Shown here piece after piece: positions 18,873 to 41,441 of a stretch of DNA of 64,000 nt (positions within the stretch are counted from its first letter, which is position 1; every line of letters starts with the position of its first letter). Position numbers and translations under genes: made by a program. Under the pieces are notes generated by a model. The model had not been told where the DNA came from. It did no database searches and saw only the letters and a program-made list of their open reading frames with translations. The DNA is from Candidatus Falkowbacteria bacterium (lineage in GTDB: Bacteria; Patescibacteriota; Patescibacteriia; Patescibacteriales; UBA12075). The DNA lies in the NCBI GenBank assembly GCA_003514005.1, contig DOSJ01000004.1, positions 165,533 to 229,532 on the forward strand, read 5' to 3'.

Positions 18873-20240
18873 ATGCCAAGAATTGCTAAAGAAAAAATAA
18901 ATAAAGAGCCGGTTCGCGCGAAAAAGATCGTTCGATTTTCTCGATTACGGGGAATGAAAGATGTTCTATTCGATGAATATCGTTATTGGGATTTGATCAC
19001 TAAAAAGGCCACGGATTTGGCAGATGTATATGATTTTCGCCGGATTGATACGCCGATTTTGGAAAAACTTGACCTATACGAACGCTCAACCGGATCCGAT
19101 ACCGATGTTGTTTCCAAAGAGATGTATTCTTTTATCGACAAGAGCGAAGAAAAAGTCGCTTTGCGTCCGGAAGCTACGCCGGGAATCGTGCGTTCATATA
19201 TTGAGCACGGTTTATTCAATCAACCCCAGCCGATCAAGACATTTTGGCTCGGTCCTTTGTTCCGGCATGAAAAGCCGCAATCCGGACGAACGCGCCAGCA
19301 CAGCCAGATAAATTTTGACGTATTCGGCGAAGCCGGTCCGATAACCGATGCTCAGCTGATCTTGATTACATATAATTTTTATACCGAATTACAGATAGAC
19401 GTTCAGGTTCAGATAAACAGCATCGGCTGTCCGGATTGCCGCAAGGAATATATCAATAAGCTTACCGAATACTATAAAGAAAGAGGAAAACGTTCAAGGC
19501 TTTGCAATGATTGCAAAAGGCGCTTTGTAAAGAATCCTTTGCGACTTTTGGATTGCAAGGAAAAAGACTGCATCGAAGTGCGTGAAGACGCGCCACAGAT
19601 TGTGGATTTCTTGTGCGAAGGCTGTCGCGAGCATTTTATCAAAGTACTCGAATATTTGGACGAACTTGGCATCTCTTACAATTTGAATCCATTTTTGGTC
19701 AGGGGCCTGGATTATTACACGCGTACGGTGTTTGAGATTGTCGCTGTTGATGACGAGGGCGAAAAAGACGAGAATGGACAACGACGCCAGTCTTCCTTGG
19801 GTGGCGGCGGACGTTATGATAATCTGATCGAGATGCTTGGCGGACGACCGACACCGGCTTGCGGTTTTGGCTTGGGCGTTGAGCGGGCGATTTTGAAGAT
19901 CAAAGAAAAGAATATCCCATTAAAAGAAGATAAAAAAGATTTTATATTTTTGGCGCAATTAGGCGAGCAAGCGCGCCTAAAGGCGGTAACCTTGTTCGAA
20001 GAAATGCGCCGCGCCGGCTATCGCGTCCGCCAAGCCTTTACCAAAGACAGCCTGAAAGCCCAGCTTGAAATCGCTGATCGCATCGGCGCGAAGTACAGCC
20101 TGATCCTCGGACAAAAAGAGCTTTTGGACGGCACGATAATCATCCGCGACATGGAATCCGGCACGCAAGAAGTGATTGACCAGAAGAAGATATATGTTGA
20201 AATCAATAAGCGGTTGGAGATGGATAAGGGGGGTAATTAA
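18873..20240 (+). CDS. hisS: histidine--tRNA ligase (canonical copy)
   Basis: Class II motifs FRHEKPQSGRTRQHSQ and GGGGRYDNL, a Cys-rich insertion domain and an HGTP anticodon-binding domain. Confidence 0.95.
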   Translation: MPRIAKEKINKEPVRAKKIVRFSRLRGMKDVLFDEYRYWDLITKKATDLADVYDFRRIDTPILEKLDLYERSTGSDTDVVSKEMYSFIDKSEEKVALRPEATPGIVRSYIEHGLFNQPQPIKTFWLGPLFRHEKPQSGRTRQHSQINFDVFGEAGPITDAQLILITYNFYTELQIDVQVQINSIGCPDCRKEYINKLTEYYKERGKRSRLCNDCKRRFVKNPLRLLDCKEKDCIEVREDAPQIVDFLCEGCREHFIKVLEYLDELGISYNLNPFLVRGLDYYTRTVFEIVAVDDEGEKDENGQRRQSSLGGGGRYDNLIEMLGGRPTPACGFGLGVERAILKIKEKNIPLKEDKKDFIFLAQLGEQARLKAVTLFEEMRRAGYRVRQAFTKDSLKAQLEIADRIGAKYSLILGQKELLDGTIIIRDMESGTQEVIDQKKIYVEINKRLEMDKGGN

Positions 20241-21185: not shown

Positions 21186-21200
21186 CTTATATAAAAAAAA

Positions 21201-21240
21201 TCACCTCACCCTTCGCGAAGGGTGGGGTGATTTTTTGTTT
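21201..21240 (+). terminator. intrinsic terminator
   Basis: TCACCTCACCC-TTCGCGAA-GGGTGGGGTGA followed by TTTTTTGTTTTTT. Confidence 0.8.
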
Positions 21241-21363
21241 TTTACAAATTGATTTTACGCAATATATTTTCTTTTTTATGATTCATATGCATTAATTTTA
21301 TTATCTTATTTTAATAATAATCAATGATTTTTTGCTATCTCAACAGAGCCTTGCAATTTAACC

Positions 21364-21530
21364 TTGTATTTTTATAAAAACTAGTGTATATTAATTTTAA
21401 TATGAAATTTTATACAAAAACAACCCAATATAACCATCATATCTACTTGCTTTAAGTAGCAGGGCTTGTTTTTGTGTAATTATATAATATAAGAAAAAAA
21501 ATAAAGCCCTGTGGGGCTTTTTTTGTTTTT
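21364..21530 (+). promoter_or_regulatory. promoter plus attenuator-like leader (17-codon mini-ORF with 1:2, 2:3 and 3:4 alternative pairings and a terminator)
   Basis: TTGTAT-17 nt-TATATT (21364-21392). Mini-ORF at 21402-21455 encodes MKFYTKTTQYNHHIYLL. ACAAAAACAACCC (21414-26) pairs with GGGCTTGTTTTTGT (21462-75). GGGCTT (21462-67) can instead pair with AAGCCC (21504-09). Terminator AAGCCC-TGTG-GGGCTT plus a T-run (21504-21530). Confidence 0.45.
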
Positions 21531-21562: not shown

Positions 21563-22333
21563 ATGTATAAATATATGAAGGTAAAAATATTTAGCGCAGC
21601 CGGCGGAAATTCTACGGCAATTTTATATGATTTGTCATGTTCAAAAATTGATTATGCTTTTTTAAATAGCATAATTCAAAAAGCCTATCCTGAAGTGGAG
21701 CAAGTTGGTTTTTTTGAAAAAGGTGAGAAATATAATCGTTTGCAAATGGCAGGAGGAGAGTTTTGTGGAAACTCAACAAGAAGTTTCGCTTGCCTTTTGA
21801 GTGAGTTGGACTCTGGGAAAAAAGAATTAATATTTGAGGTATCCGGATTTGACAAACCAGTTCGTGCTACTGTTGAGCGTCTTGGAGATGACAGTTTTTA
21901 TTGTTCTGCTGAGTTTGCAGGATTGTCGGGAAATATTTCAAAAAAACAAATTAATGGAAAAGATGTATTTGCGGTTGATCTTGGCGGAATTGTTCATATA
22001 TTGATTGATGAAAAGTTTTTTCCGATTATTGAAAAAACTATCAAAGATGATATGAAAAATATCAAAAATTTACTCGGCGTTGATAGCGAGGCAGTGGGGG
22101 TTATCTGGATTCGTGAAGAAGGTGGTGATGTGTATATTCGTCCGGTTGTATGGGTGAAGAGTATTAATACATGTTTTGACGAAACATCATGTGGTTCCGG
22201 CACGATAGCGGTCGCGCTTTTAAAGAAAAAAAATGTTTCGGTTGTTCAGCCATCTGGAGAAAAAATAAATGTATATTTCAAAGAAAATTCTTTGGTCTTA
22301 TCGTCAAAAATGAAAAAAACGTTTTCACTTTAA
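21563..22333 (+). CDS. DapF-fold PLP-independent two-cysteine racemase/epimerase (substrate unknown)
   Basis: MAGGEFCGNSTRSFA and DETSCGSGTIAVA correspond to the two catalytic-Cys motifs of diaminopimelate-epimerase-like enzymes. N-terminal GGNSTAIL replaces the DapF GLGNDF. Confidence 0.6.
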   Translation: MYKYMKVKIFSAAGGNSTAILYDLSCSKIDYAFLNSIIQKAYPEVEQVGFFEKGEKYNRLQMAGGEFCGNSTRSFACLLSELDSGKKELIFEVSGFDKPVRATVERLGDDSFYCSAEFAGLSGNISKKQINGKDVFAVDLGGIVHILIDEKFFPIIEKTIKDDMKNIKNLLGVDSEAVGVIWIREEGGDVYIRPVVWVKSINTCFDETSCGSGTIAVALLKKKNVSVVQPSGEKINVYFKENSLVLSSKMKKTFSL

Positions 22334-22418
22334 AGAAAGCAACGCGACAATAATAAAAATAATAAATAATTATGATATATGGAATTTAGATTTTGTATTT
22401 TATGATTAATTAAAAAAT

Positions 22419-23105
22419 ATGGATTTAAAAATTGCAAAATATTGCGACCTTAAGAAAACGTCTGTTATTGATAATAACGAGGAATTTGTGATTGTTAATA
22501 AATATGATAGGGACATAAAACAAAAGCATTTTTTTAAAGATATGTTGCAGTATTTTGATGGACAAATCGTGGTTAGAAAAACCGTCGCAAAGAAATTGGC
22601 AAAAGTAAATTTTGAATTAAAAAAATTAAATAAAAATTATACTCTTTTAGTGTCCTATGGATATCGTCTCTTAAAAATTCAAAAAGAATATTTTTCAAAA
22701 GAACTTGAAATTGTGAAAAATGAAAATAAAGGAATATCAAAGGATAAATTATTTGAATTGGTGCACAAAAAAATCGCCGTACCGATAGTAGCAGGACACC
22801 CCACGGGAGGAGCCGTAGATTTGACAATATTTGATACAAAAAACAATATATTGATTGATATGGGTGGAGATATTGCGGATTTTTCAAATAAAAGGGTACC
22901 AACTTTTAATAAATATATTACAAAAATTCAAGAAAAAAATAGAAAGATATTGCTTGAATTGATGTTGCGACAAAATTTTTGTCCTTTTTATGAAGAATGG
23001 TGGCATTTTTCTTACGGTGATAAGGAGTGGGCGTTTTTTTATGAAAAAGAAAATGCGATTTATGAACAATTGGCGATTAAAAAGATTAAAATAAAGCTTA
23101 AATAA
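22419..23105 (+). CDS. D-alanyl-D-alanine dipeptidase family (peptidase M15D, VanX/DdpX-like)
   Basis: SYGYR, HPTGGAVDLTI (HxxGxAxD zinc ligands) and EWWHFSYGD (ExxH). Confidence 0.8.
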   Translation: MDLKIAKYCDLKKTSVIDNNEEFVIVNKYDRDIKQKHFFKDMLQYFDGQIVVRKTVAKKLAKVNFELKKLNKNYTLLVSYGYRLLKIQKEYFSKELEIVKNENKGISKDKLFELVHKKIAVPIVAGHPTGGAVDLTIFDTKNNILIDMGGDIADFSNKRVPTFNKYITKIQEKNRKILLELMLRQNFCPFYEEWWHFSYGDKEWAFFYEKENAIYEQLAIKKIKIKLK

Positions 23106-23122
23106 TTTTTAAGAATAACATT

Positions 23123-24536
23123 ATGATAATTGATAAAGAAAAAAAAGAAACAGTTAAACCAGAGCGTCCTGGTGGGTTTTTGGATTATTTACCAGGTGAT
23201 TTTTTGGCTAGAGAAAAAATGATAAATACTATATCAAGCGTTTTTCGATCTTTTGGATATAATCCTATCGAGACTCCACGAGTAGAATTTTTGAAAACAT
23301 TATCAGGCGAAGAAAGCGATACTGGAAAAAACATTTTTCGGATTTTAAGCAGTAATGATTCTGAGCCATTGGCAATGCCATTTGATCATACAGTCCCTTT
23401 TGCCAGATTGCTTGCGGCTAATCCCTATAATTCAAAAGATAGAAGTGGTATACGATTGCCTTGGCGCAGAATGGTTGTTGGACCAGTATTTCGTGGTGAA
23501 AAACCTCAGGCAGGAAGATATAGACAATTTTATCAATTTGATGCGGATATTGCCGGAACTGATTCAATGATGGCTGACGCAGAAATTGTTGCATTGATTT
23601 TCAATACGCTTTCAGCATTGGGAGTAAAAAAATTTTTGATTCGAATAAATAATAGAAAGATATTAAACGGTTTAGCAGAACTTGTTGAAATAAAAACACG
23701 AGATAAAGTTTCAAAAGAAGACATCACCAAAGAACTAATGAGAATCCTTGATAAGGTTGATAAAATCGGTCTTGAAGGTATAGTCAGCGAATTGCAGAAA
23801 AAACCAGAATCAGATTTTGACCCTGCTCCTTTTTTGTCAAATGAAGCAGTCTTAAAAGTTCGGTCTTATCTTGATATTCAGGGCAGTAATACTGAACGCC
23901 TTAATAAAGCCAAGAATGTTTTTAGTGGAATAAAAATTGCTGAAGAAGGAATAGTAGAGCTTGAAAAAATAATTTCGTTTCTTGCACCCTTGGAAGTACC
24001 AGCAGAATTTGTTAGTATTGATTTTAGTATTGCCAGAGGCTTAGATTATTATACTGGTCCTGTTATGGAAACAATTCTTCTTGACGCCAAGAGATTTGGA
24101 AGTATTTTTAGTGGCGGAAGGAAGATACGATGAGCTTGTAAGACGTTTTACCGGAGAAGCACTACCGGCAGTAGGAGCTTCTGTTGGCGTAGACAGAATG
24201 TTTGCAGCTTTGAATCATTTAGGACTTATTGATAACAAAAATCAGTCAGTAGCAGACGTGCTAGTACTTCGACTCGCGACCGATAAAGATGAAAAATATC
24301 TTGAAATAGCAAATATTATTAGAAAAAGTGGCAAGAATGTTGAGGTTTGTCTTTTTTCAGATACTACTTTTAAAAATCAATTTAGTTTTGCCCTTGGAAG
24401 TGGAGTCAGATATGTTGTGATTTGCGGGGAGGATGAGTTTGCAAAAAGTGAAATTGCAGTCAAGGATATGCAAAAAAGAATACAAGAAACTATTCCTTAT
24501 AATAAAATTGAAGAGTATTTTGATTGTTTGGAATAA
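23123..24536 (+). pseudogene. second, divergent histidyl-tRNA synthetase paralogue interrupted by a 1-nt frameshift
   Basis: ORFs 23123-24133 and 24081-24536 are the catalytic and anticodon-binding parts. Deleting one A at 24118/24119 (GGCGGAAGGAAGATAC) restores SGGGRYDELV, the HisRS motif-3 region. Confidence 0.8.
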
Positions 24537-25960: not shown

Positions 25961-26488
25961 ATGAAAATCGAAACAATTAAAACCAAAAGATTGGTTCTGC
26001 GTCCTTATCGTATGTCTGACGCGGAAATAGCAACAAAAAATCTTTGTAATAAAAAAATTTCTCGTTGGCTTTCTTCTTTGCCAAGTCCTTATCGCATAGA
26101 AGATGCGAATAATTGGATTGGAAAAATGATTGAAGAGCGTAAAAAGAAAGAGCCGCAAACAATCGCTTATGTAATAGAATATGAGAAAAAAATGATTGGC
26201 GCAATCGGTTTGCATGGAATTGTGTTTGGTCACAAGGCTGAACTGGGTTATTGGTTGTCTGAAGAATTTTGGGGAAAGGGTGTAATGTCAGAAGCAGTAA
26301 CGGCACTAGTAAGTTATGCATTTCGTCGTTTGCGATTACGTCGCATACAGGCGGGGACTTTTGTTGGTAATTCGGGCAGTGAAGGTGTATTAAAAAAATG
26401 TGGGTTTCAACACGAGGGATTGATTCGTAATGATGTGAAGAAAAATAATCGTTTTGTGGATTGTAATATTTTTTCTAGAATAAAATAA
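25961..26488 (+). CDS. GNAT family N-acetyltransferase (RimJ/RimL-like)
   Basis: LVLRPYRMSD..., the IGAIGLH... core and a WGKGVMSEAV acetyl-CoA loop. Confidence 0.8.
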   Translation: MKIETIKTKRLVLRPYRMSDAEIATKNLCNKKISRWLSSLPSPYRIEDANNWIGKMIEERKKKEPQTIAYVIEYEKKMIGAIGLHGIVFGHKAELGYWLSEEFWGKGVMSEAVTALVSYAFRRLRLRRIQAGTFVGNSGSEGVLKKCGFQHEGLIRNDVKKNNRFVDCNIFSRIK

Positions 26489-35514: not shown

Positions 35515-35597
35515 TATATAAATTAAATAAACAAAATAGCGGCTCAAGCAGCCCATAGCCTTTTTAGGTTTTGGGCTGTTTTTTTAGAGAAAAAAAT

Positions 35598-38500
35598 ATG
35601 ATTACCATTACTCTAAGGACAAAACAAATATTAATTTTGATTGTAGTTTTGGCGCTTGTTTTGTCTGCGTTTCCGGCACGCATAACTTATGCTGCTGGAG
35701 TTATGTATTTGCCTGGTGAAACTATATCGCCAGCTTGCGGGCCGACAGAAAGCGGTTGCGGTGTGCGTGCATCTGTTTACACTGCCGATACTATGACTGA
35801 CGGTGCGCTTCTCTTTGCTACATCATCGACATGGTCGTTGCTGTCCGCTGGTGCGGATGGCCAAGTTTTAAAGTTATCCGGTGGGTTGCCTTCATGGGGC
35901 AACGATGATGGCGGCACGAGCTATACAGCCGGTTCAGGACTTTCTCTCGGTGGTTCAATTTTTTCTTTGGATCGGACGGCAACCGGTACTTGGAGCGGAC
36001 TTCAAACTTTTGGTGGCGGAATTTCTTTGGGGGGCAATACATACACTAATCTTGCTGGTACTGGTCTTAGTTTTTCCGGCGGTGCTTTATCAACAGCCCT
36101 TGGAATCACGATTGAATCATCAGAAATTACCGATGAGACTATCGTGTCTGGAGATATCGCTGACGGCACAATAACTTTTGGAAAAATCGCTTCCAATAGT
36201 TGCGGCGCCAATGAAATCATGAAATGGAACGGCTCGGCTTGGGCTTGTTCCACAGATAATAATAATACTTACACCGCTAACACTGGCTTGACTCTTTCTT
36301 CCGGCGCTTTTTCTTTGGATATAAATGGATTATCGGCAATAAGTTCAGTTGATGCTACTGACACTCTCGCCGTCTATACTGCAAGCGGTCTGAAAAAAAT
36401 CACTCGCAGTGATATGTTTAGTGATGTTTTGGGAGCGATGAATTATCGCGGGACTTGGAATGCAACCACGAATTATCCTGATTTATCATCGTATTGTGTT
36501 TCAGGCACCAAGGGGCATTATTATGTTGTTGGAACAAGCGGAACAACAAACTTAAGCGGTATTGCAAGTTGGTCAGTTAATGACTGGGCGGTATGTAATG
36601 GTACAGCTTGGGAAAAAGTGCAGACAACCAACGCTGTCACAAGTGTTTTTGGACGTACGGGTGCGGTTATCGCCTCGGGCGGGGATTATAATGCTTCGCA
36701 AATTACAAATTCTGCAAGCGGAAATATCGCGGCAATAACAGTTCAAAATGCGCTCAATGAATTAGATAATGAAAAATTATCTACTACTCTAAACAGTGGT
36801 TTAATATTTATTGGAAATAGTTCTAATCAAGCTACTGGGATTGCTCTTTCAGGAGATGCAACTATAAATAATGCAGGTGTTATAACCATTGGCGCTGATA
36901 AAGTAACTTTGGGAACTGATACCATGGGCAATTATGTAGCAACTCTGGCTGATAGTGGAGCGGGACTTTTTACAATAGCTAATTCTGGAATGGAAAATGC
37001 AGGAGTAACGCTCTCTTTAGTAGATGATATTTTAAATTTTACAAAATTTGCGGATGCCCTGACATTAGATAATAGCACCAGCATCACTCTTGGCGGAAAT
37101 GATTTAACGACTGCTATTACGAGTACGGGTTTACCAAAATTTATCAGAACAGCTGCTGGGCAATGGATGAATTTTGCTGATGGTACGGATAGTTTTGGAA
37201 TTTATAATATTTCAGGTACTCCCGAAGCATTAATTGCAGCCGACAAAGGTTCTTTGGCAGTAGATACAAACAGCGGCGCTCTTTACATTAAAACTACAGA
37301 TTCTCTCAATACTGGTTGGTCGGCTTTTGGTTTGGCAAGTTCCGGTATTACTTCTCTCAATGGCCTAACTGGATCAACCCAAACTTTTGCTACGAGCACG
37401 AGCGGAACAGATTTTGCTATAACATCTGATGGGACTACTCACACCTTTAGTATTCCTGACGCATCTGCCACCGCTAGAGGACTTATTACTACAGGAACCC
37501 AAGCTATTGTCGGAGCTAAAACTTTAACTTCAAATTTAACGCTATCAGGGTCTGCGGCGAACATAGTTCTTGGTTCTAATTATCTCTCTGGCGATGGCGA
37601 TGATGAAGGTATTTATATTAATTCTTCAGGCAACATCGGCATCGGAACCACTATAACTACAAGCAAACTTACGATTAAAACTACAACCACGGGAGATGGC
37701 ATCCAACTTTATGGTGACGGTAACACCTCGCCATTTTTTAAGATTGGATCAAATTCAAACTACTCGGCAAATGCACGTAACTATGGTTTTGCGGTAGACC
37801 GTGGTCTTTGGGGGGACTTTAGTATATTCCAATCAAGCGTCGCGCAGGGTGATCCATATACCACTGGTACTGCGGTGCTCACTATTAATAAAGATGGTCA
37901 CTTCAGCGTCGGCGCCAGTACTATCGCGGGCACCCTCGGTTTGACAGGAGATTTGGCAGTGAATACGGATAAATTTAATATCAATGCCACTTCTGGAAAC
38001 ACCACAGTAGGAGGTACATTGACCGCTCAGGGCGCGGTGGCCTACAAAAAAGGCTCTGATTTTTCCACGACCGAAACATCAATAAATGTAGATTTTGGAA
38101 ACACTTCCCTTGTTCGTCTCACCGGCGCGAGCGCTCAGACAATCGATACGATTGCAGGTGGTACCGATGGAAAGGTTTTGACTATTGTTAATGCCGGAGC
38201 CAACTCCGCAACAATTAAAGATAGCTCGACAGCTTCTGGTACGGTGGCCAACAAAATCTATACCGGAACGGGTGCTGATATGACTTTGGCGGCAGATGCA
38301 TCACTCCTTCTCATTTATGATTCTGGCGCATCGCGTTGGAGAGTAGTTGGAGGGTCAGGAAGTGGAGGTTTGGGGGGAAGCTCCATTCAAACAATTTCTT
38401 CTACCGGGAATATTTCTGGTTGGGGTTATACAGTTAAAGCTGATGGAACCTCGGCATCATTCACGACAACTCTCCCAACCGCTTCGGGAAATTCTGGAAA

Positions 38501-41441
38501 ATTAATTGAAATCGTGAAAACCGATAATACAGCTAATGCGCTTTCCATTTCTCCGTATGGAAGTGAAACAATTAATGGATCAACTAATAAAATTTATCTT
38601 TATTCGCAAGGTGATTCGGTCGTTATTCGTTCCGACGGTTCAAATTCCTATATCGTTTCCGACAATCGTTCGAGCGTGGGGCAGAGTAAGGGGTATATGT
38701 TCCTTGTTGGTGGCATATCTTCCGTAAGTAACGGCACACAACTTGCTTATACAACAGTGCGTGGAAGCTACGGCACCGATATTGCTCAAAGTGGCAATGG
38801 TGTGCTTTTAAAGGCAGGTAAAACCTATAAATTAACGGCATCCGTTTCGATTTCGAACAGTGCTAATGCTCAGTTAGGTATAGAATTTTACAACACTACA
38901 GCAGGCGTTACTATCTCTTCATCCGGCAACAATGCGTTGAAGCTCGCTTCTAATGCGAGTAATAACTACTCGGATGCGGGGGATCTGAGCGCGGTATTTA
39001 CTCCGACGGTTGATTCTGTTGTCGTTATTCGTGCTATCAATTCAACAGCGGGTGTCAATGCTTCTGCGGACAACTTTGATATCGAAGTTATCTCTACTTC
39101 CCAGAATGTGGTGAATACGGTGGAGTATATTTACGCCAAGAATTCTGCCGGACAAACACTTACGGGAGGGAGCCCACTTACCTTTAATACAACTGTTTCC
39201 GGCAACATCAACAAAAGTAACAACAATACTTTTACCCTCAAAGCTGGGAAAACTTATCGTCTTGAAGGTACGGTTGGTGCTTCGACCGCAAATGCCACTG
39301 CTGTTTTCTTCCAGTGGCGCGATACGACAAATAACACCTACATTGGTAATGTAGCTTCCCGAATACCAGCCGCACATGCTTCTACAGCAGGAGAAGAAAG
39401 TGGTAATGCGATTGCTATATATACACCAACTACCGATGTTACGGTTCAACTTTGGTCGCATACCACACAAGGAAATTTATGGGGTCAAGGCGCGACCGAT
39501 AATGCCGATCAATATTCTTGGATTCAGATCACTCAAATCGGCTCAACGGCTTCGACCGGCGTGGCTTTGAACTCGCTTATTGCCGCCACGGCTTCGGGTG
39601 CGCTGGATAATACAAATTACGGACAGACATGGGATTGGAGTACTGCCACTACACAAACAGGTCTCACTATGACCGGCAACGCGCTTACGACTGGCGGGCT
39701 TTTGAGTCTCACCTCCAGCAATGCTTCTCTGAACTCGACCAATGGCCTTCTCTATGTGGCCAACACCGGTGCCTCGACGAACGGAATCGTCGCTCGCATT
39801 CAATCTAATTCTACTGTCGGATCGGGACTGACAGTTTTGGCAAACGGCCATGTTGGTATCGGCACAACGACACCGATAGCGGCGTTGCATGTATACGGGA
39901 CAGATAAGCAAATAATGATCGATAGGTCTACCGCCACCTCGACAAGATATGGACAACTGCTTTTTGCAGACGGAGGAATCGAAAATTGGTCAATTGGACA
40001 AAGAGTGGGCGATCAAAAATTCCATATTTACAAAACTTTGGCGACAGCGGGAGAGGTATTGACGATTGATACTTCCGGCAACATCGGCATCGGGACGACG
40101 AGTCCTGGAACGACATTAGACGTAAATGGCACCGGACGTTTTGTTTCGCCAGATGTTGGTACGACAGGAGGAATTGTACTTCGCGATAATGTAAGTAATG
40201 ACGGGAATTATCTTCAATTCGTGAATAATGCCGGTACTTCCCAATATTCTTATATCCAGGGATTAAGTTCTGGCGGATTGGCATTTATGGGTGGAAACGT
40301 CGGAATCGGTACCACTGACCCATCATTTGCACTTTCAGTTACGGATGCTGCTAACAGTGAATATGTCACTCAACTAATTAACACAGGCACTACCCCTCAT
40401 GGCATGCAAATCCAACTCACTTCCGCCGTCAGTGGCAGTATTTTTAATGGATTTTTTAATTTTTCAAATTTAATTGGATCAATTACTTACAATGGGACTG
40501 GAGTAAATTATAATCAAACTTCTGACGAAAGGCTCAAGGAAAACATAGTTGACACACACTTCGGTGTTCTTGATTTGATGAAAGTTAATGTCCGTGATTT
40601 TGAATATAAAAATGATTCAAATGGTCAAACTCTAAATGGTTTTATTGCCCAAGAATTACAGAAAATTTATCCTGATGCGGTTACCGTTGGTACTGACGAG
40701 GTTGATGATAATGGTAACTTAATTCATCCGTGGATGGTTGATTATGGTCGATTAACCCCGCTTATTGTCAAATCTATTCAAGACCAACAGACGCAAATTG
40801 AAGCTCTCAAGACAGGTATGGCGGTATCTATGGAAGGATTAGATGGTTTGGTTTTGTCTGGTGGCCTCACAATTGCCGGCGAAGTGGATATGGGTAAAGA
40901 CACAGTTGGTGAGGCAGTTATAAAAGCTGGCGATACTTCTGTGTTAGTTGTCTTTGAAAATAAATATACTAATCAACCAGTTATTACAATTACTAAAATG
41001 ACTGCCGGTGTCTTGTCTGACTACTATGTTAGCGATATAACTGTAAAAGGGTTCAAGATTAACATTGACCCGGCGCAAACCGATAAAGATATTTATTTTA
41101 GTTGGCATGCTTTTGGTTCAAATAGTGGAGTCAGATTATTTAGTGATGGGTTAAAAGAAAATATTGAAGCTATTGATCCGGATGTAACAACTTCGCCGGA
41201 AGTAACGACAGAAGCTCCTCCTGTTCAATCTGGTGATAATCCTATAGTAGGTGATAGCTCTCCAGTGGAGCCAGAAAATCCAGAAATGCCAGCGGATACA
41301 GAGGAATCTATTGAACCGGAAAACCCAGTTGAGTTTGAAACACTTGTGACGCCGGTTGTAGAAAATAATGCCCCAACTGAACCGGAAGCTCCCGCCGAAC
41401 AATCTATCGAACCGGTTACAAGTGAAGATGTGTCGCAATAA
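35598..41441 (+). CDS. giant (~1947 aa) tail-fibre-like surface protein with a peptidase S74 intramolecular chaperone domain, an H-type lectin domain and an acidic P/E-rich tail
   Basis: N-terminal signal/TM. Repeated G(N/H)(I/V)GIGTT.P...L.V fibre motifs. S74 signature TSDERLKENIVD...GFIAQELQKIYPDAV...VDYGRL (Ser codon at 40521). Then VVFENKYTNQPVITIT...VKGFKINI...FSWHAFG. Start moved to ATG 35598. Confidence 0.85.
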   Translation: MITITLRTKQILILIVVLALVLSAFPARITYAAGVMYLPGETISPACGPTESGCGVRASVYTADTMTDGALLFATSSTWSLLSAGADGQVLKLSGGLPSWGNDDGGTSYTAGSGLSLGGSIFSLDRTATGTWSGLQTFGGGISLGGNTYTNLAGTGLSFSGGALSTALGITIESSEITDETIVSGDIADGTITFGKIASNSCGANEIMKWNGSAWACSTDNNNTYTANTGLTLSSGAFSLDINGLSAISSVDATDTLAVYTASGLKKITRSDMFSDVLGAMNYRGTWNATTNYPDLSSYCVSGTKGHYYVVGTSGTTNLSGIASWSVNDWAVCNGTAWEKVQTTNAVTSVFGRTGAVIASGGDYNASQITNSASGNIAAITVQNALNELDNEKLSTTLNSGLIFIGNSSNQATGIALSGDATINNAGVITIGADKVTLGTDTMGNYVATLADSGAGLFTIANSGMENAGVTLSLVDDILNFTKFADALTLDNSTSITLGGNDLTTAITSTGLPKFIRTAAGQWMNFADGTDSFGIYNISGTPEALIAADKGSLAVDTNSGALYIKTTDSLNTGWSAFGLASSGITSLNGLTGSTQTFATSTSGTDFAITSDGTTHTFSIPDASATARGLITTGTQAIVGAKTLTSNLTLSGSAANIVLGSNYLSGDGDDEGIYINSSGNIGIGTTITTSKLTIKTTTTGDGIQLYGDGNTSPFFKIGSNSNYSANARNYGFAVDRGLWGDFSIFQSSVAQGDPYTTGTAVLTINKDGHFSVGASTIAGTLGLTGDLAVNTDKFNINATSGNTTVGGTLTAQGAVAYKKGSDFSTTETSINVDFGNTSLVRLTGASAQTIDTIAGGTDGKVLTIVNAGANSATIKDSSTASGTVANKIYTGTGADMTLAADASLLLIYDSGASRWRVVGGSGSGGLGGSSIQTISSTGNISGWGYTVKADGTSASFTTTLPTASGNSGKLIEIVKTDNTANALSISPYGSETINGSTNKIYLYSQGDSVVIRSDGSNSYIVSDNRSSVGQSKGYMFLVGGISSVSNGTQLAYTTVRGSYGTDIAQSGNGVLLKAGKTYKLTASVSISNSANAQLGIEFYNTTAGVTISSSGNNALKLASNASNNYSDAGDLSAVFTPTVDSVVVIRAINSTAGVNASADNFDIEVISTSQNVVNTVEYIYAKNSAGQTLTGGSPLTFNTTVSGNINKSNNNTFTLKAGKTYRLEGTVGASTANATAVFFQWRDTTNNTYIGNVASRIPAAHASTAGEESGNAIAIYTPTTDVTVQLWSHTTQGNLWGQGATDNADQYSWIQITQIGSTASTGVALNSLIAATASGALDNTNYGQTWDWSTATTQTGLTMTGNALTTGGLLSLTSSNASLNSTNGLLYVANTGASTNGIVARIQSNSTVGSGLTVLANGHVGIGTTTPIAALHVYGTDKQIMIDRSTATSTRYGQLLFADGGIENWSIGQRVGDQKFHIYKTLATAGEVLTIDTSGNIGIGTTSPGTTLDVNGTGRFVSPDVGTTGGIVLRDNVSNDGNYLQFVNNAGTSQYSYIQGLSSGGLAFMGGNVGIGTTDPSFALSVTDAANSEYVTQLINTGTTPHGMQIQLTSAVSGSIFNGFFNFSNLIGSITYNGTGVNYNQTSDERLKENIVDTHFGVLDLMKVNVRDFEYKNDSNGQTLNGFIAQELQKIYPDAVTVGTDEVDDNGNLIHPWMVDYGRLTPLIVKSIQDQQTQIEALKTGMAVSMEGLDGLVLSGGLTIAGEVDMGKDTVGEAVIKAGDTSVLVVFENKYTNQPVITITKMTAGVLSDYYVSDITVKGFKINIDPAQTDKDIYFSWHAFGSNSGVRLFSDGLKENIEAIDPDVTTSPEVTTEAPPVQSGDNPIVGDSSPVEPENPEMPADTEESIEPENPVEFETLVTPVVENNAPTEPEAPAEQSIEPVTSEDVSQ

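What the first reader, a model, noticed from the sequence alone, without database searches (positions are those of the whole stretch)
21563..24536. Operon pairing a DapF-fold racemase and a VanX-like D,D-dipeptidase with a second histidyl-tRNA synthetase paralogue
Three co-directional, closely spaced genes follow their own promoter and leader. The first is a two-cysteine PLP-independent racemase/epimerase (EFCGNSTRS and ETSCGSGT motifs). The second is an M15D D-Ala-D-Ala-dipeptidase-type enzyme (HxxGxAxD, EWWH). The third is a full-length but divergent HisRS, with catalytic core, GGGRYD motif and HGTP anticodon-binding domain. A canonical hisS already exists at 18873. From memory, the racemase N-terminal GGN(S)T and EFCGN(S)T motifs resemble the histidine-racemase branch of the DapF fold (CntK/HisR-type) more than true DapF; that needs an HMM or tree check. 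If it holds, the cluster links histidine racemisation, histidine activation and D-amino-acid dipeptide hydrolysis. That would be a candidate pathway for making or recycling a D-His (or other D-amino-acid) envelope component, or an aaRS-paralogue-based ligase system. This is hypothesis only.
Basis: inference. Interest (0 to 1): 0.65.

Follow-up and report, generated by a model that had tools for sequence, protein, structure and literature searches.

The report
Histidine-starvation operon: racemase, dipeptidase, broken HisRS
A candidate-phylum bacterium carries a three-gene operon (a histidine racemase, a VanX-like D-dipeptidase and a second, now frameshifted, histidyl-tRNA synthetase) behind a histidine-sensing leader; the same gene set recurs, sometimes fused, in dozens of other tiny-genome bacteria and most likely recycles D-histidine into usable L-histidine.

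Summary
Window 21563-24536 holds three co-directional genes. The first is a two-cysteine racemase that matches the histidine racemases HisR and CntK, not DapF, by sequence model, solved-structure sequence search and predicted fold. The second is a VanX-like M15 zinc peptidase with all catalytic residues. The third is a second HisRS of a different lineage from the canonical hisS at 18873.

HisRS2 is cut in motif 3 by a 4-nt tandem duplication (GGAA GGAA, 24116-24123). The truncated product is on 15 contigs, with source names from at least three samples. Otherwise the gene is pristine.

The trio is strongly syntenic. In 80 species-level loci carrying the racemase, the M15 gene lies within 5 kb in 52 and a HisRS in 32. 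M15-racemase, racemase-M15, racemase-GNAT and racemase-HisRS fusions occur. Relatives add HisG, histidine ammonia-lyase, tRNA-His and a histidine repressor.

New here: a leader peptide with tandem His codons plus a terminator and antiterminator precedes the operon, and similar leaders precede many relatives. Expression should therefore rise when His-tRNA charging falls.

The best reading is salvage of D-histidine or a D-His amide into L-His for translation. It is not envelope D-His synthesis, and not an aaRS-derived ligase. I found no description of the cluster in the papers I could search.

The parts
21195..21236 (+). Intrinsic terminator ending the upstream YqeY-like gene; it marks the operon's 5' boundary
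   Evidence: 19-bp stem followed by a T-run; read directly from the sequence.
21241..21268 (+). Promoter-like site (TTTACA, 16 nt, TATATT)
   Evidence: Consensus scan, 10 of 12 matches. A consensus match only, not tested.
21402..21455 (+). Leader peptide ORF MKFYTKTTQYNHHIYLL*, with tandem His codons at 21435-21440
   Evidence: Comparable His-run leaders precede the racemase or HisG gene in L057, L060, L069, L078, L065, L081, L092, L093, L083, L087, L004 and others. Enrichment over control upstream regions: p=2.4e-6.
21410..21478 (+). Attenuator hairpin 1:2. The 5' arm lies inside the leader ORF; the 3' arm is GGGCUUGUUUUUGUG
   Evidence: Minimum-free-energy fold, -20.6 kcal/mol. The whole leader has z=-5.1 against shuffles.
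21460..21511 (+). Antiterminator 2:3: CAGGGCUU (21460-21467) pairs with AAGCCCUG (21504-21511)
   Evidence: It forms in a constrained fold when a ribosome footprint is placed over the His codons, and it excludes the terminator.
21503..21530 (+). Intrinsic terminator 3:4 (AAAGCCC-UGUG-GGGCUUU followed by a U-run), 33 nt before the racemase start
21563..22333 (+). Cofactor-independent two-cysteine racemase of the HisR/CntK (histidine racemase) branch; alternative start at 21575
   Evidence: NCBIfam: HisR 8e-22, CntK 2e-16, DapF 0.0067. PDB sequence search finds only HisR and CntK. AF2 model pLDDT 94.5; Foldseek ranks HisR TM 0.82, CntK 0.74, DapF 0.63-0.68. Precomputed Pfam PF26317 CntK_N.
22419..23105 (+). 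VanX-like M15 zinc peptidase, cytoplasmic, with the catalytic set intact
   Evidence: PF01427 6e-16. VanX 1r44 by sequence 1.6e-6, with equivalents of R71, H116, D123, E181 and H184 aligned. Best fold match is VanX at E 8e-11; LdcB, VanY and VanXY are at 3.5e-5 or worse. A subfamily of about 730 proteins, many apparently on the same contigs as racemase homologues, judged by matching contig lengths.
23123..24133 (+). HisRS2, N-terminal 336 codons (catalytic core up to motif 3), ending at a premature UGA
   Evidence: The identical truncated product is recorded on 15 contigs.
24116..24123 (+). Frameshift lesion: GGAA GGAA tandem duplication inside motif 3 (ancestral AGT GGC GGA AGA TAC GAT = SGGRYD)
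   Evidence: Homologues read SGG-RY[DN] or GGG-RYD. No intact allele is in the protein collection.
24111..24536 (+). HisRS2 C-terminal part in the +1 frame (rest of motif 3 and the HGTP anticodon-binding domain)
   Evidence: PF03129 1.3e-9; TIGR00442 positions 282-405. Called as a separate 141-aa gene in public records.
18873..20240 (+). Canonical bacterial-type hisS (context: it presumably supplies HisRS activity now)
   Evidence: TIGR00442 433 bits. Only 26% identical to HisRS2.

Best explanation
This is a histidine-limitation-induced salvage operon.

Regulation. Transcription starts near 21270 and runs into a classical his-type attenuator. When His-tRNA is plentiful, the ribosome finishes the 17-codon leader, covers region 2, and the terminator at 21503-21520 forms. 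When charged tRNA-His is scarce, the ribosome stalls at the two His codons. Region 2 then pairs with the 5' arm of the terminator, and transcription continues into the three genes.

Enzymes. The VanX-like M15 peptidase is inferred to release D-histidine from a D-amino-acid dipeptide or a similar amide in the cytoplasm. The HisR/CntK-type racemase converts D-His to L-His. The type-2 HisRS captures L-His on tRNA-His.

State in this genome. The third step has been knocked out by a recent 4-nt duplication. The canonical hisS 2.9 kb upstream presumably takes over, leaving a working two-gene module (dipeptidase and racemase).

Shown by the tools: gene identities and intact active sites; conserved synteny and fusions; the leader, terminator and antiterminator architecture and its recurrence in relatives; the frameshift.

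Inferred: the substrate of the M15 enzyme, histidine as the racemase's substrate, the D-to-L direction of flux, and that attenuation works in vivo.
For: 1. Racemase identity. All 25 family members sampled hit the HisR and CntK models better than DapF. Every residue proposed to bind histidine in HisR (N18, E49, E65, C67, G68, N69, E206, C209, S211; PMC11602996) has an invariant counterpart here (N16, E46, E66, C68, G69, N70, E207, C210, S212). The fold ranks HisR, then CntK, then DapF, then PhzF, then ProR.

2. Functional coupling. Within 5 kb of the racemase, 80 species-level loci carry M15 in 52, a HisRS in 32 and a small GNAT in 34. Fusions exist as M15-racemase (L019, L033, L036), racemase-M15 (L035), racemase-GNAT (many loci) and racemase-HisRS (L057).

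3. Histidine theme. HisG (12 loci), histidine ammonia-lyase (8) and hisZ/hisIE lie nearby. So does a YerC/YecD TrpR-family regulator (13 loci; TIGR02531 9e-27). That family is the histidine repressor validated in PMC9413887. A tRNA-His gene lies directly after the HisRS in at least 7 loci.

4. Regulation. His-run leader peptides with terminators precede the racemase or HisG-racemase operons. They occur in 14 of 84 such regions against 22 of 749 control upstream regions (Fisher p=2.4e-6). HHH runs occur in 6 of 84 against 6 of 749 (p=5e-4). Constrained folding of the window leader reproduces terminator and antiterminator switching.

5. HisRS2 is an ordinary HisRS. It scores 336.6 bits on TIGR00442 against a cut-off of 286.75. 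It is 66% identical to Desulfonema HisRS. It shows no deviation at 118 conserved columns.
Against: - No enzyme has been assayed. The M15 substrate is a guess, and no abundant natural source of D-His dipeptides is known.
- The window leader has only two His codons, where classical his leaders have more.
- The GNAT that is most tightly linked to the racemase in relatives (often fused) has no clear role in simple salvage. It is absent from this window.
- Histidine ammonia-lyase next to the racemase in some loci would destroy the product. In L083 and L087 it is behind its own terminator and upstream gap, but in L025 it lies 4 nt upstream of the racemase.
- HisG occurs in lineages generally regarded as histidine auxotrophs (background knowledge, not tested here), and this is unexplained.
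- Racemases are reversible, so the direction of flux is inferred only from regulation.
Confidence: 0.45

Rival explanations
1. D-histidine defence rather than nutrition. Exogenous D-His, for example released by neighbouring bacteria, lowers tRNA-His charging and could be misused by D-Ala-D-Ala ligase. The resulting ribosome stalling turns on the operon. The racemase then removes D-His, the M15 enzyme hydrolyses aberrant D-Ala-D-His, the GNAT acetylates D-His, and an extra HisRS restores charging.
For: The gene set and the attenuator are the same as in the main explanation. This reading gives the GNAT a role; D-amino-acid N-acetylation as detoxification is known from yeast (my own knowledge). 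It also gives roles to the adjacent ammonia-lyase and to an additional HisRS. VanX-type enzymes act on D,D-dipeptides.
Against: There is no evidence here that D-His is toxic or present in these habitats. This reading needs more assumptions than salvage. The minimal clusters contain only the racemase and M15.
Confidence: 0.2
2. Biosynthetic D-His supply. The racemase makes D-His for an envelope component, a non-canonical D-amino-acid signal or an opine-type metallophore, and the M15 enzyme edits the D-Ala-D-Ala pool as VanX does.
For: CntK makes D-His for staphylopine (PMC11602996). The racemase, D,D-dipeptidase and adenylate-forming enzyme resemble VanT, VanXY and VanC in outline (my own knowledge).
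Against: No CntL, CntM, Ddl-type ligase, Mur or Fem gene appeared among the neighbours I inspected in the related loci. Induction when histidine is scarce is the opposite of what a pathway that drains L-His would need. The racemase is fused to a tRNA-charging HisRS in L057.
Confidence: 0.12
3. Stereo-inversion through an N-acyl intermediate, analogous to the Geobacillus D-to-L pathway. A GNAT acylates D-His, the racemase acts on N-acyl-His, and a metallohydrolase (M15 or M20) releases L-His irreversibly. The window would hold a reduced version lacking the GNAT.
For: The GNAT, racemase and hydrolase are adjacent or fused in every pairwise order. M20 replaces or accompanies M15 in L093, L083, L078 and L082. 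The precedent pathway is cited in PMC12006748.
Against: The residues that bind the free alpha-amino group in HisR (Asn and Glu) are invariant here, which argues for free histidine as the substrate. Roughly a dozen loci, and this window, lack the GNAT yet keep the racemase and M15. VanX-type enzymes release a C-terminal D-residue, not an L-residue.
Confidence: 0.1
4. HisRS2 is a neofunctionalised aaRS paralogue: an amino-acid ligase or a D-His-activating enzyme.
For: It is a second HisRS beside a histidine racemase. aaRS paralogues acting as ligases exist (my own knowledge). Related clusters do contain a different HisRS-like protein that lacks the anticodon-binding domain.
Against: HisRS2 passes the hisS equivalog cut-off. 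It is 60-66% identical to Desulfobacterales HisRS, one of which (Desulfonema) sits in a housekeeping-type setting. It keeps all 118 conserved columns and the anticodon-binding domain. In relatives it is followed by tRNA-His. In this genome it is frameshifted.
Confidence: 0.03

Closest known systems
HisR (Fusobacterium nucleatum) and CntK (Staphylococcus aureus), cofactor-independent histidine racemases
   Same: DapF-like two-domain fold, two catalytic cysteines and the acidic residues proposed to bind the imidazole. These are the best sequence-model, PDB and fold matches.
   Different: Only about 22% identical (HisR) and 18-19% (CntK) over the fold alignment, and far below both NCBIfam equivalog cut-offs (78 against 400; 60 against 300). 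The genomic context is different: no cntL or cntM, and none of the neighbours reported for Fusobacterium hisR. Instead there are M15, GNAT, HisRS and HisG genes under histidine control.
VanX / DdpX D-Ala-D-Ala dipeptidases (M15D)
   Same: Zinc ligands, catalytic Glu and Arg, cytoplasmic location, and VanX as the best fold match.
   Different: 21% identity, TM 0.61-0.68, and below the VanX equivalog cut-off (54 against 320). It is not in a van or ddp cluster. It co-varies with, and is sometimes fused to, a histidine racemase, so a different and probably His-containing substrate is expected.
Leader-peptide attenuators of his operons (Enterobacteria; candidates in Firmicutes, PMC9413887)
   Same: A short ORF with consecutive His codons, overlapping 1:2, 2:3 and 3:4 pairings, and an intrinsic terminator just before the first gene.
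   Different: It controls a racemase and peptidase operon rather than the biosynthetic pathway. It has only 2 His codons here (2-4 in the relatives examined). It occurs in Patescibacteria; my literature searches did not cover attenuators in that group, so I cannot say whether this has been reported before.
Geobacillus kaustophilus pathway for irreversible D- to L-amino-acid conversion (Sakai et al. 2006, cited in PMC12006748)
   Same: The larger clusters in relatives combine a GNAT acyltransferase, a racemase and a metallohydrolase. The purpose would also be to turn D- into L-amino acids.
   Different: [quoted passage not shown] The window operon has no GNAT. Details of the Geobacillus enzymes are from my own knowledge.
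Type-2 (eukaryote/Bacteroidetes/Desulfobacterales-like) histidyl-tRNA synthetases
   Same: HisRS2 groups with 3net, 6nhi and human HARS ahead of E. coli-type HisRS. It is 66% identical to Desulfonema magnum HisRS.
   Different: It is interrupted by a 4-nt duplication in this genome, and it is embedded in a racemase operon.

Membership tests
HisR/CntK-type histidine racemase | DapF-like pseudo-symmetric two-domain fold | tested here: met
   AF2 model pLDDT 94.5. Foldseek: HisR 9cr6 TM 0.82 (E 2e-19), CntK 6jis TM 0.74.
HisR/CntK-type histidine racemase | Two catalytic cysteines in xxCGN and SCGSG contexts | tested here: met
   C68 and C210 align with HisR C67 and C209 and are invariant in 25 homologues.
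HisR/CntK-type histidine racemase | Acidic residues proposed to bind the imidazole (HisR E49, E65, E206), in a pocket reported for HisR to contain no basic residues | tested here: met
   E46, E66 and E207 are present and invariant. The residue roles in HisR are themselves proposals. Whether this protein's pocket lacks basic residues was not examined.
HisR/CntK-type histidine racemase | Score above the curated equivalog cut-off (NF052224 400 bits; NF033599 300 bits) | tested here: not met
   78.2 and 60.3 bits. This is a separate clade of the same superfamily branch.
HisR/CntK-type histidine racemase | Racemisation of histidine in vitro | not testable with these tools
   Requires an enzyme assay.
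Diaminopimelate epimerase DapF | TIGR00652 score of at least 114.65 bits | tested here: not met
   15.9 bits, E 0.0067. No DapF chain at E up to 1 in the PDB sequence search. DapF folds rank below HisR and CntK.
VanX-type M15D D,D-dipeptidase | Zn ligands His-Asp-His plus catalytic Glu and Arg | tested here: met
   GHPTGGAVD, EEWWH and YGYR align with VanX H116, D123, E181, H184 and R71 and are invariant in 25 homologues.
VanX-type M15D D,D-dipeptidase | Pfam PF01427 gathering score | tested here: met
   59.2 bits against 27.
VanX-type M15D D,D-dipeptidase | VanX or DdpX equivalog score (NF033115 320 bits; NF007557 176 bits) | tested here: not met
   54.3 and 43.8 bits.
VanX-type M15D D,D-dipeptidase | Hydrolysis of D-Ala-D-Ala | not testable with these tools
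   Requires an enzyme assay.
Histidine-tRNA ligase (hisS) | TIGR00442 score of at least 286.75 bits, with class II motifs and the HGTP anticodon-binding domain | tested here: met
PF03129 is present. No deviation at 118 conserved columns.
Histidine-tRNA ligase (hisS) | Uninterrupted reading frame | tested here: not met
   A GGAA duplication at 24116-24123 splits the gene. The truncated product is on 15 contigs, and no intact allele is on record.
his-type leader-peptide transcription attenuator | Short leader ORF with consecutive His codons | tested here: met
   21402-21455, codons NHH; only two His codons. Leaders in relatives carry HH to HHHH.
his-type leader-peptide transcription attenuator | Intrinsic terminator and a mutually exclusive antiterminator placed so that stalling selects the antiterminator | tested here: met
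   Unconstrained and constrained folds. This is an in-silico result only.
his-type leader-peptide transcription attenuator | Derepression on histidine starvation in vivo | not testable with these tools
   Requires a reporter or transcript assay.
Van-type cell-wall remodelling cluster (racemase + D-Ala-D-X ligase + D,D-peptidase) | A D-Ala-D-X ligase of the Ddl/VanA/VanC family in the cluster | tested here: not met
   None in the window operon. None appeared among the neighbours I inspected in the related loci: the recurring ORF families, the cluster families, and the Pfam calls on L070.
CntKLM opine-metallophore cluster | CntL and CntM (opine dehydrogenase) genes beside the racemase | tested here: not met
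   Absent from the window operon and from the neighbourhoods examined.

The most novel reading that the evidence does not exclude
The racemase and M15 pair, together with the GNAT, HisRS-tRNA-His, HisG and histidine-repressor genes that travel with it, would be a previously unrecognised pathway. It is histidine-starvation-induced and lets ultra-small, amino-acid-auxotrophic bacteria (Patescibacteria and reduced gut Clostridia) turn D-histidine or a D-His-containing amide into L-His for translation. That would be a new physiological role for histidine racemases, distinct from metallophore synthesis. It would also define a new substrate class for VanX-like peptidases.
Probability: 0.4. Interest if true: 0.72.

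Novelty: new variant of a known kind. Interest (0 to 1): 0.62.

Why it matters
- Only two cofactor-independent histidine racemases have been characterised, and a biological role is known for one of them (CntK, in staphylopine synthesis). The role of HisR in Fusobacterium is still open (PMC11602996).
- This family of more than 1,000 proteins, mostly labelled 'diaminopimelate epimerase' or 'hypothetical', comes with a clear regulatory and genomic context pointing to histidine supply. That gives a directly testable function.
- It suggests that candidate-phylum bacteria, which cannot make amino acids, exploit D-amino-acid pools.
- It extends his-type leader-peptide attenuation to Patescibacteria.
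- It corrects likely mis-annotations: DapF and D-Ala-D-Ala dipeptidase calls would wrongly be read as cell-wall functions in metabolic reconstructions of these organisms.

Tried and rejected
- T-box, riboswitch or known His leader in the window leader or in nine related loci: Rfam found only tRNAs and sub-threshold noise.
- Operator of the Firmicutes histidine repressor (cacTTTAnnnnnnTAAAgtg) in the window: two matches with 3 mismatches, neither near the operon, and fewer than chance expectation.
- Anti-phage defence models (PADLOC): no match.
- DapF identity: rejected.
- The window's own GNAT at 25961-26488 as the missing cluster GNAT: unrelated to the cluster GNAT family.
- Programmed +1 frameshift or transcriptional slippage at the HisRS2 break: no slippery run or known recoding signal. 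The lesion is a simple GGAA tandem duplication and orthologues are uninterrupted. Not excluded, but unlikely. A functional split enzyme is also unlikely, because the cut lies in ATP-binding motif 3.
- My first repair, deleting one base to give GGGRYD (470 aa), was superseded by the four-base deletion (SGGRYD, 469 aa) after comparison with homologues.
- Exact-sequence searches for an intact allele: nothing in the protein collection. Neither allele was found in the JGI metagenome contigs, which is uninformative.
- Literature searches for this gene combination found nothing.


Full report
**Source and layout**

The window matches Candidatus Falkowbacteria bacterium GW2011_GWC2_38_22 at 100%. This is a candidate-phylum (Patescibacteria) genome from groundwater. 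The region lies among housekeeping genes: pheT, topA, dprA, der, a LytR-family gene, lepB, hisS, a YqeY-like gene, then the trio, then tyrS, a GNAT, an S51 peptidase, a hemerythrin, ligA and gatA.

The three genes are co-directional. Gaps are 85 nt between the racemase and M15, and 17 nt between M15 and HisRS2.

**Racemase (21563/21575-22333)**

NCBIfam ranks Fusobacterium histidine racemase HisR first (8e-22) and CntK second (2e-16). DapF reaches only 0.0067 and 15.9 bits, against a cut-off of 114.65. The same ranking holds for all 25 homologues sampled.

The only solved structures found by sequence are HisR (9cr1, 9cr6) and CntK (6jis, 6jiw, 6l4l).

A confident AlphaFold model (pLDDT 94.5) superposes best on HisR (TM 0.82). 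CntK follows (0.74), then DapF (0.63-0.68), then PhzF-like proteins, then proline and hydroxyproline epimerases.

The residues that the HisR paper proposes for binding the alpha-amino group, the carboxylate and the imidazole all have invariant counterparts here.

The protein is nevertheless far below both equivalog cut-offs. It is a separate clade of the histidine-racemase branch. That clade has more than 1,100 members in the protein collection, which sources mostly label 'diaminopimelate epimerase' or 'hypothetical'.

**M15 peptidase (22419-23105)**

It passes the Pfam D-Ala-D-Ala dipeptidase model. It aligns with VanX through all five catalytic and metal residues. VanX is by far its best fold match: E 8e-11, against 3.5e-5 or worse for LdcB, VanY and VanXY.

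It is only 21% identical to VanX, however, and far below the VanX and DdpX equivalog scores.

Its subfamily has about 730 members. Many of them appear to share contigs with racemase homologues, judged by matching contig lengths in the two hit tables.

**HisRS2 (23123-24536)**

It belongs to the eukaryote/Bacteroidetes-like HisRS type. Its best PDB matches are 3net, 6nhi and human HARS, well ahead of E. coli-type enzymes.

It is 26% identical to the window's canonical hisS. It is 64% identical to the intact orthologues in L083 and L085, and 66% identical to Desulfonema magnum HisRS. The Desulfonema gene sits beside gatB, dnaK, grpE and tilS. Another close homologue follows hisB, hisC and hisD.

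The gene is broken by a tandem GGAA duplication in motif 3. Homologues read SGGRY[DN] or GGGRYD at this point. Once repaired, the protein passes the hisS equivalog cut-off. It deviates at none of the 118 columns that are at least 97% conserved among its 122 closest homologues.

The truncated 336-aa product is recorded on 15 contigs from NCBI, JGI, ENA and Logan, with source names from three samples (GWC2, GWE1, GWF2). No intact allele is on record.

The lesion is therefore real, apparently fixed in this population, and recent. No tRNA-His gene lies in the window. In relatives, by contrast, one directly follows the HisRS.

**Synteny**

A scan of one genome per species returned 580 racemase loci, of which I examined the best 80. 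Going by the record titles, they come from Saccharibacteria, many other Patescibacteria lineages, reduced gut and rumen Clostridia, and a few records labelled otherwise.

Counts within 5 kb of the racemase, out of 80 loci:

| Neighbour | Loci |
|---|---|
| M15 peptidase | 52 |
| Small GNAT | 34 |
| HisRS | 32 |
| YerC/YecD TrpR-family regulator | 13 |
| HisG | 12 |
| Histidine ammonia-lyase | 8 |

Stop-free fusions join M15 to the racemase in both orders. They also join the racemase to the GNAT and, in L057, the racemase to a complete HisRS.

The closest relatives of the window racemase (48-57% identity) show these arrangements:
- regulator, racemase, M15, HisRS2, tRNA-His (L085 and L086; the same gene order as the window, with HisRS2 intact);
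- HisG, racemase, GNAT, M15, M20, HAL, HisRS2, tRNA-His (L083);
- HisG, racemase, GNAT, M15, HAL (L087);
- HisG, racemase, GNAT (L092);
- racemase, GNAT, M20 (L093).

In Clostridium sp. CAG:440 the racemase-GNAT fusion sits between hisZ-hisG and hisIE-HisRS-M15.

**Regulation (new)**

Between a promoter-like site (21241-21268) and the racemase start lie three elements. The first is a 17-codon ORF, MKFYTKTTQYNHHIYLL. The second is a hairpin whose 5' arm lies inside that ORF. The third is an intrinsic terminator at 21503-21520. The 3' arm of the first hairpin (CAGGGCUU) is complementary to the 5' arm of the terminator (AAGCCCUG).

Constrained folding gave three outcomes:
- with no ribosome, hairpin 1:2 and the terminator both form;
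- with a footprint over the His codons, the 2:3 antiterminator forms and the terminator is lost;
- with a footprint at the stop codon, the terminator forms.

This is the classical logic of biosynthetic attenuators.

Leaders with HH to HHHH runs, each followed by a GC-rich hairpin and a T-run, precede the racemase or the HisG-racemase operon in many loci from both Patescibacteria and Clostridia. Among them are five of the window's nearest relatives.

Compared with the upstream regions of other long ORFs in the same loci, the enrichment is 14 of 84 against 22 of 749 (p=2.4e-6). For HHH runs it is 6 of 84 against 6 of 749 (p=5e-4).

Independently, the TrpR-like neighbour belongs to the YerC/YecD family. 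That family is the histidine-responsive repressor described in PMC9413887.

Two unrelated histidine-sensing devices therefore guard the same gene set. Both switch it on when histidine is short.

**Interpretation**

Four facts frame the interpretation:
- a hydrolase and a racemase recur together and fuse in both orders, so they act on consecutive intermediates;
- the hydrolase must act first, because it can only release an amino acid;
- the racemase is built like a free-histidine racemase;
- the next gene charges L-His onto tRNA, and the whole set is induced by poor tRNA-His charging.

The simplest scheme is this: a D-His-containing amide is hydrolysed to D-His, D-His is racemised to L-His, and L-His is loaded onto tRNA-His. 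I put this at about 0.45.

A defence variant uses the same enzymes to clear exogenous D-His. An N-acyl stereo-inversion variant follows the Geobacillus precedent. Both remain open, mainly because the GNAT's role is unexplained.

Two readings fit poorly. The first is production of D-His for the envelope or for a metallophore: no ligase or Cnt partner was seen among the neighbours inspected, and the regulation runs the wrong way. The second is a ligase role for HisRS2, which looks in every respect like an orthodox HisRS.

In this genome HisRS2 is most likely a very young pseudogene, made dispensable by the canonical hisS 2.9 kb upstream.

**Limits**

- No biochemistry was done.
- Only the 80 best loci were examined, with up to 8 kb of flank on each side.
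- Several MAG taxonomic labels are doubtful.
- I could not test whether other cluster-bearing genomes have a second hisS.
- The attenuator is supported by structure prediction and comparative recurrence, not by experiment.
- Statements about D-amino-acid N-acetylation, broad-spectrum racemases and the enzyme types of the Geobacillus pathway rest on my own knowledge.

Noticed in passing
L010 341-2737; L083 2388-4767; L087 5932-8308; L070 27-1692: A 360-aa membrane protein with no Pfam or NCBIfam match is paired with a HisRS-like protein (about 430 aa) that lacks the anticodon-binding domain. The pair recurs next to the racemase cluster in Saccharibacteria, relatives of the window organism and a Clostridium MAG. 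In L010 a tRNA-His gene follows it.
   Followed up: partly
L070 1711-3922: In Clostridium sp. CAG:440 a PanC-like ligase and a PurD-like ATP-grasp enzyme sit between the anticodon-less HisRS-like gene and a full HisRS, hisZ, hisG, the racemase-GNAT fusion, hisIE, a second HisRS and M15. This hints at a larger histidine-centred pathway.
   Followed up: no
L015, L017, L018, L022, L024, L011, L012, L020 (HisG within about 0.3 kb of the racemase): Long-form HisG (ATP phosphoribosyltransferase; the L083 representative passes TIGR00070) lies beside the racemase in Saccharibacteria and other Patescibacteria. These groups are generally regarded as histidine auxotrophs (background knowledge). What HisG does there is unexplained.
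   Followed up: partly
L057 7950-10118; L074 5217-7328: L057 encodes a single 723-aa racemase-HisRS fusion. L074 encodes a HisRS with an unassigned N-terminal extension of about 290 aa, just upstream of a racemase-GNAT fusion.
   Followed up: partly
L083 13658-13733; L085 8823-8898; L013, L016, L025, L026, L030: A tRNA-His(GTG) gene sits directly downstream of the cluster HisRS in at least seven loci. The window has lost this arrangement: tyrS follows HisRS2, and there is no tRNA-His in the 64 kb.
   Followed up: yes
window 18873-20240 (about aa 185-255 of hisS): The canonical HisRS carries four Cys pairs (CPDC, CNDC, CKEKDC, CEGC) in its insertion domain, which suggests a zinc-binding module.
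   Followed up: no
(P0004, P0007, P0133, P0137, P0141, P0146): Among the closest homologues of both the racemase (49-57%) and HisRS2 (64-66%) are several proteins labelled Desulfobacterales or Desulfobacteraceae, as close as the Patescibacteria hits apart from one HisRS2 homologue at 75%. This points to horizontal transfer between these groups or to mis-binned contigs.
   Followed up: no
L021 7123-8744: Two tandem copies of the racemase follow a histidine ammonia-lyase gene.
   Followed up: no
window 35571-41441: A 1,956-aa ORF whose only Pfam match is a Peptidase_S74 (endosialidase chaperone) domain near the C-terminus. This domain is typical of phage tail-fibre-like or large surface proteins.
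   Followed up: no
L083 10380-10405 and 12085-12115; L087 3935-3965: Intrinsic terminators separate the M15/M20 genes from the histidine ammonia-lyase gene, and that gene from the HisRS. The ammonia-lyase is therefore probably not co-transcribed with the attenuator-controlled unit in those loci.
   Followed up: partly
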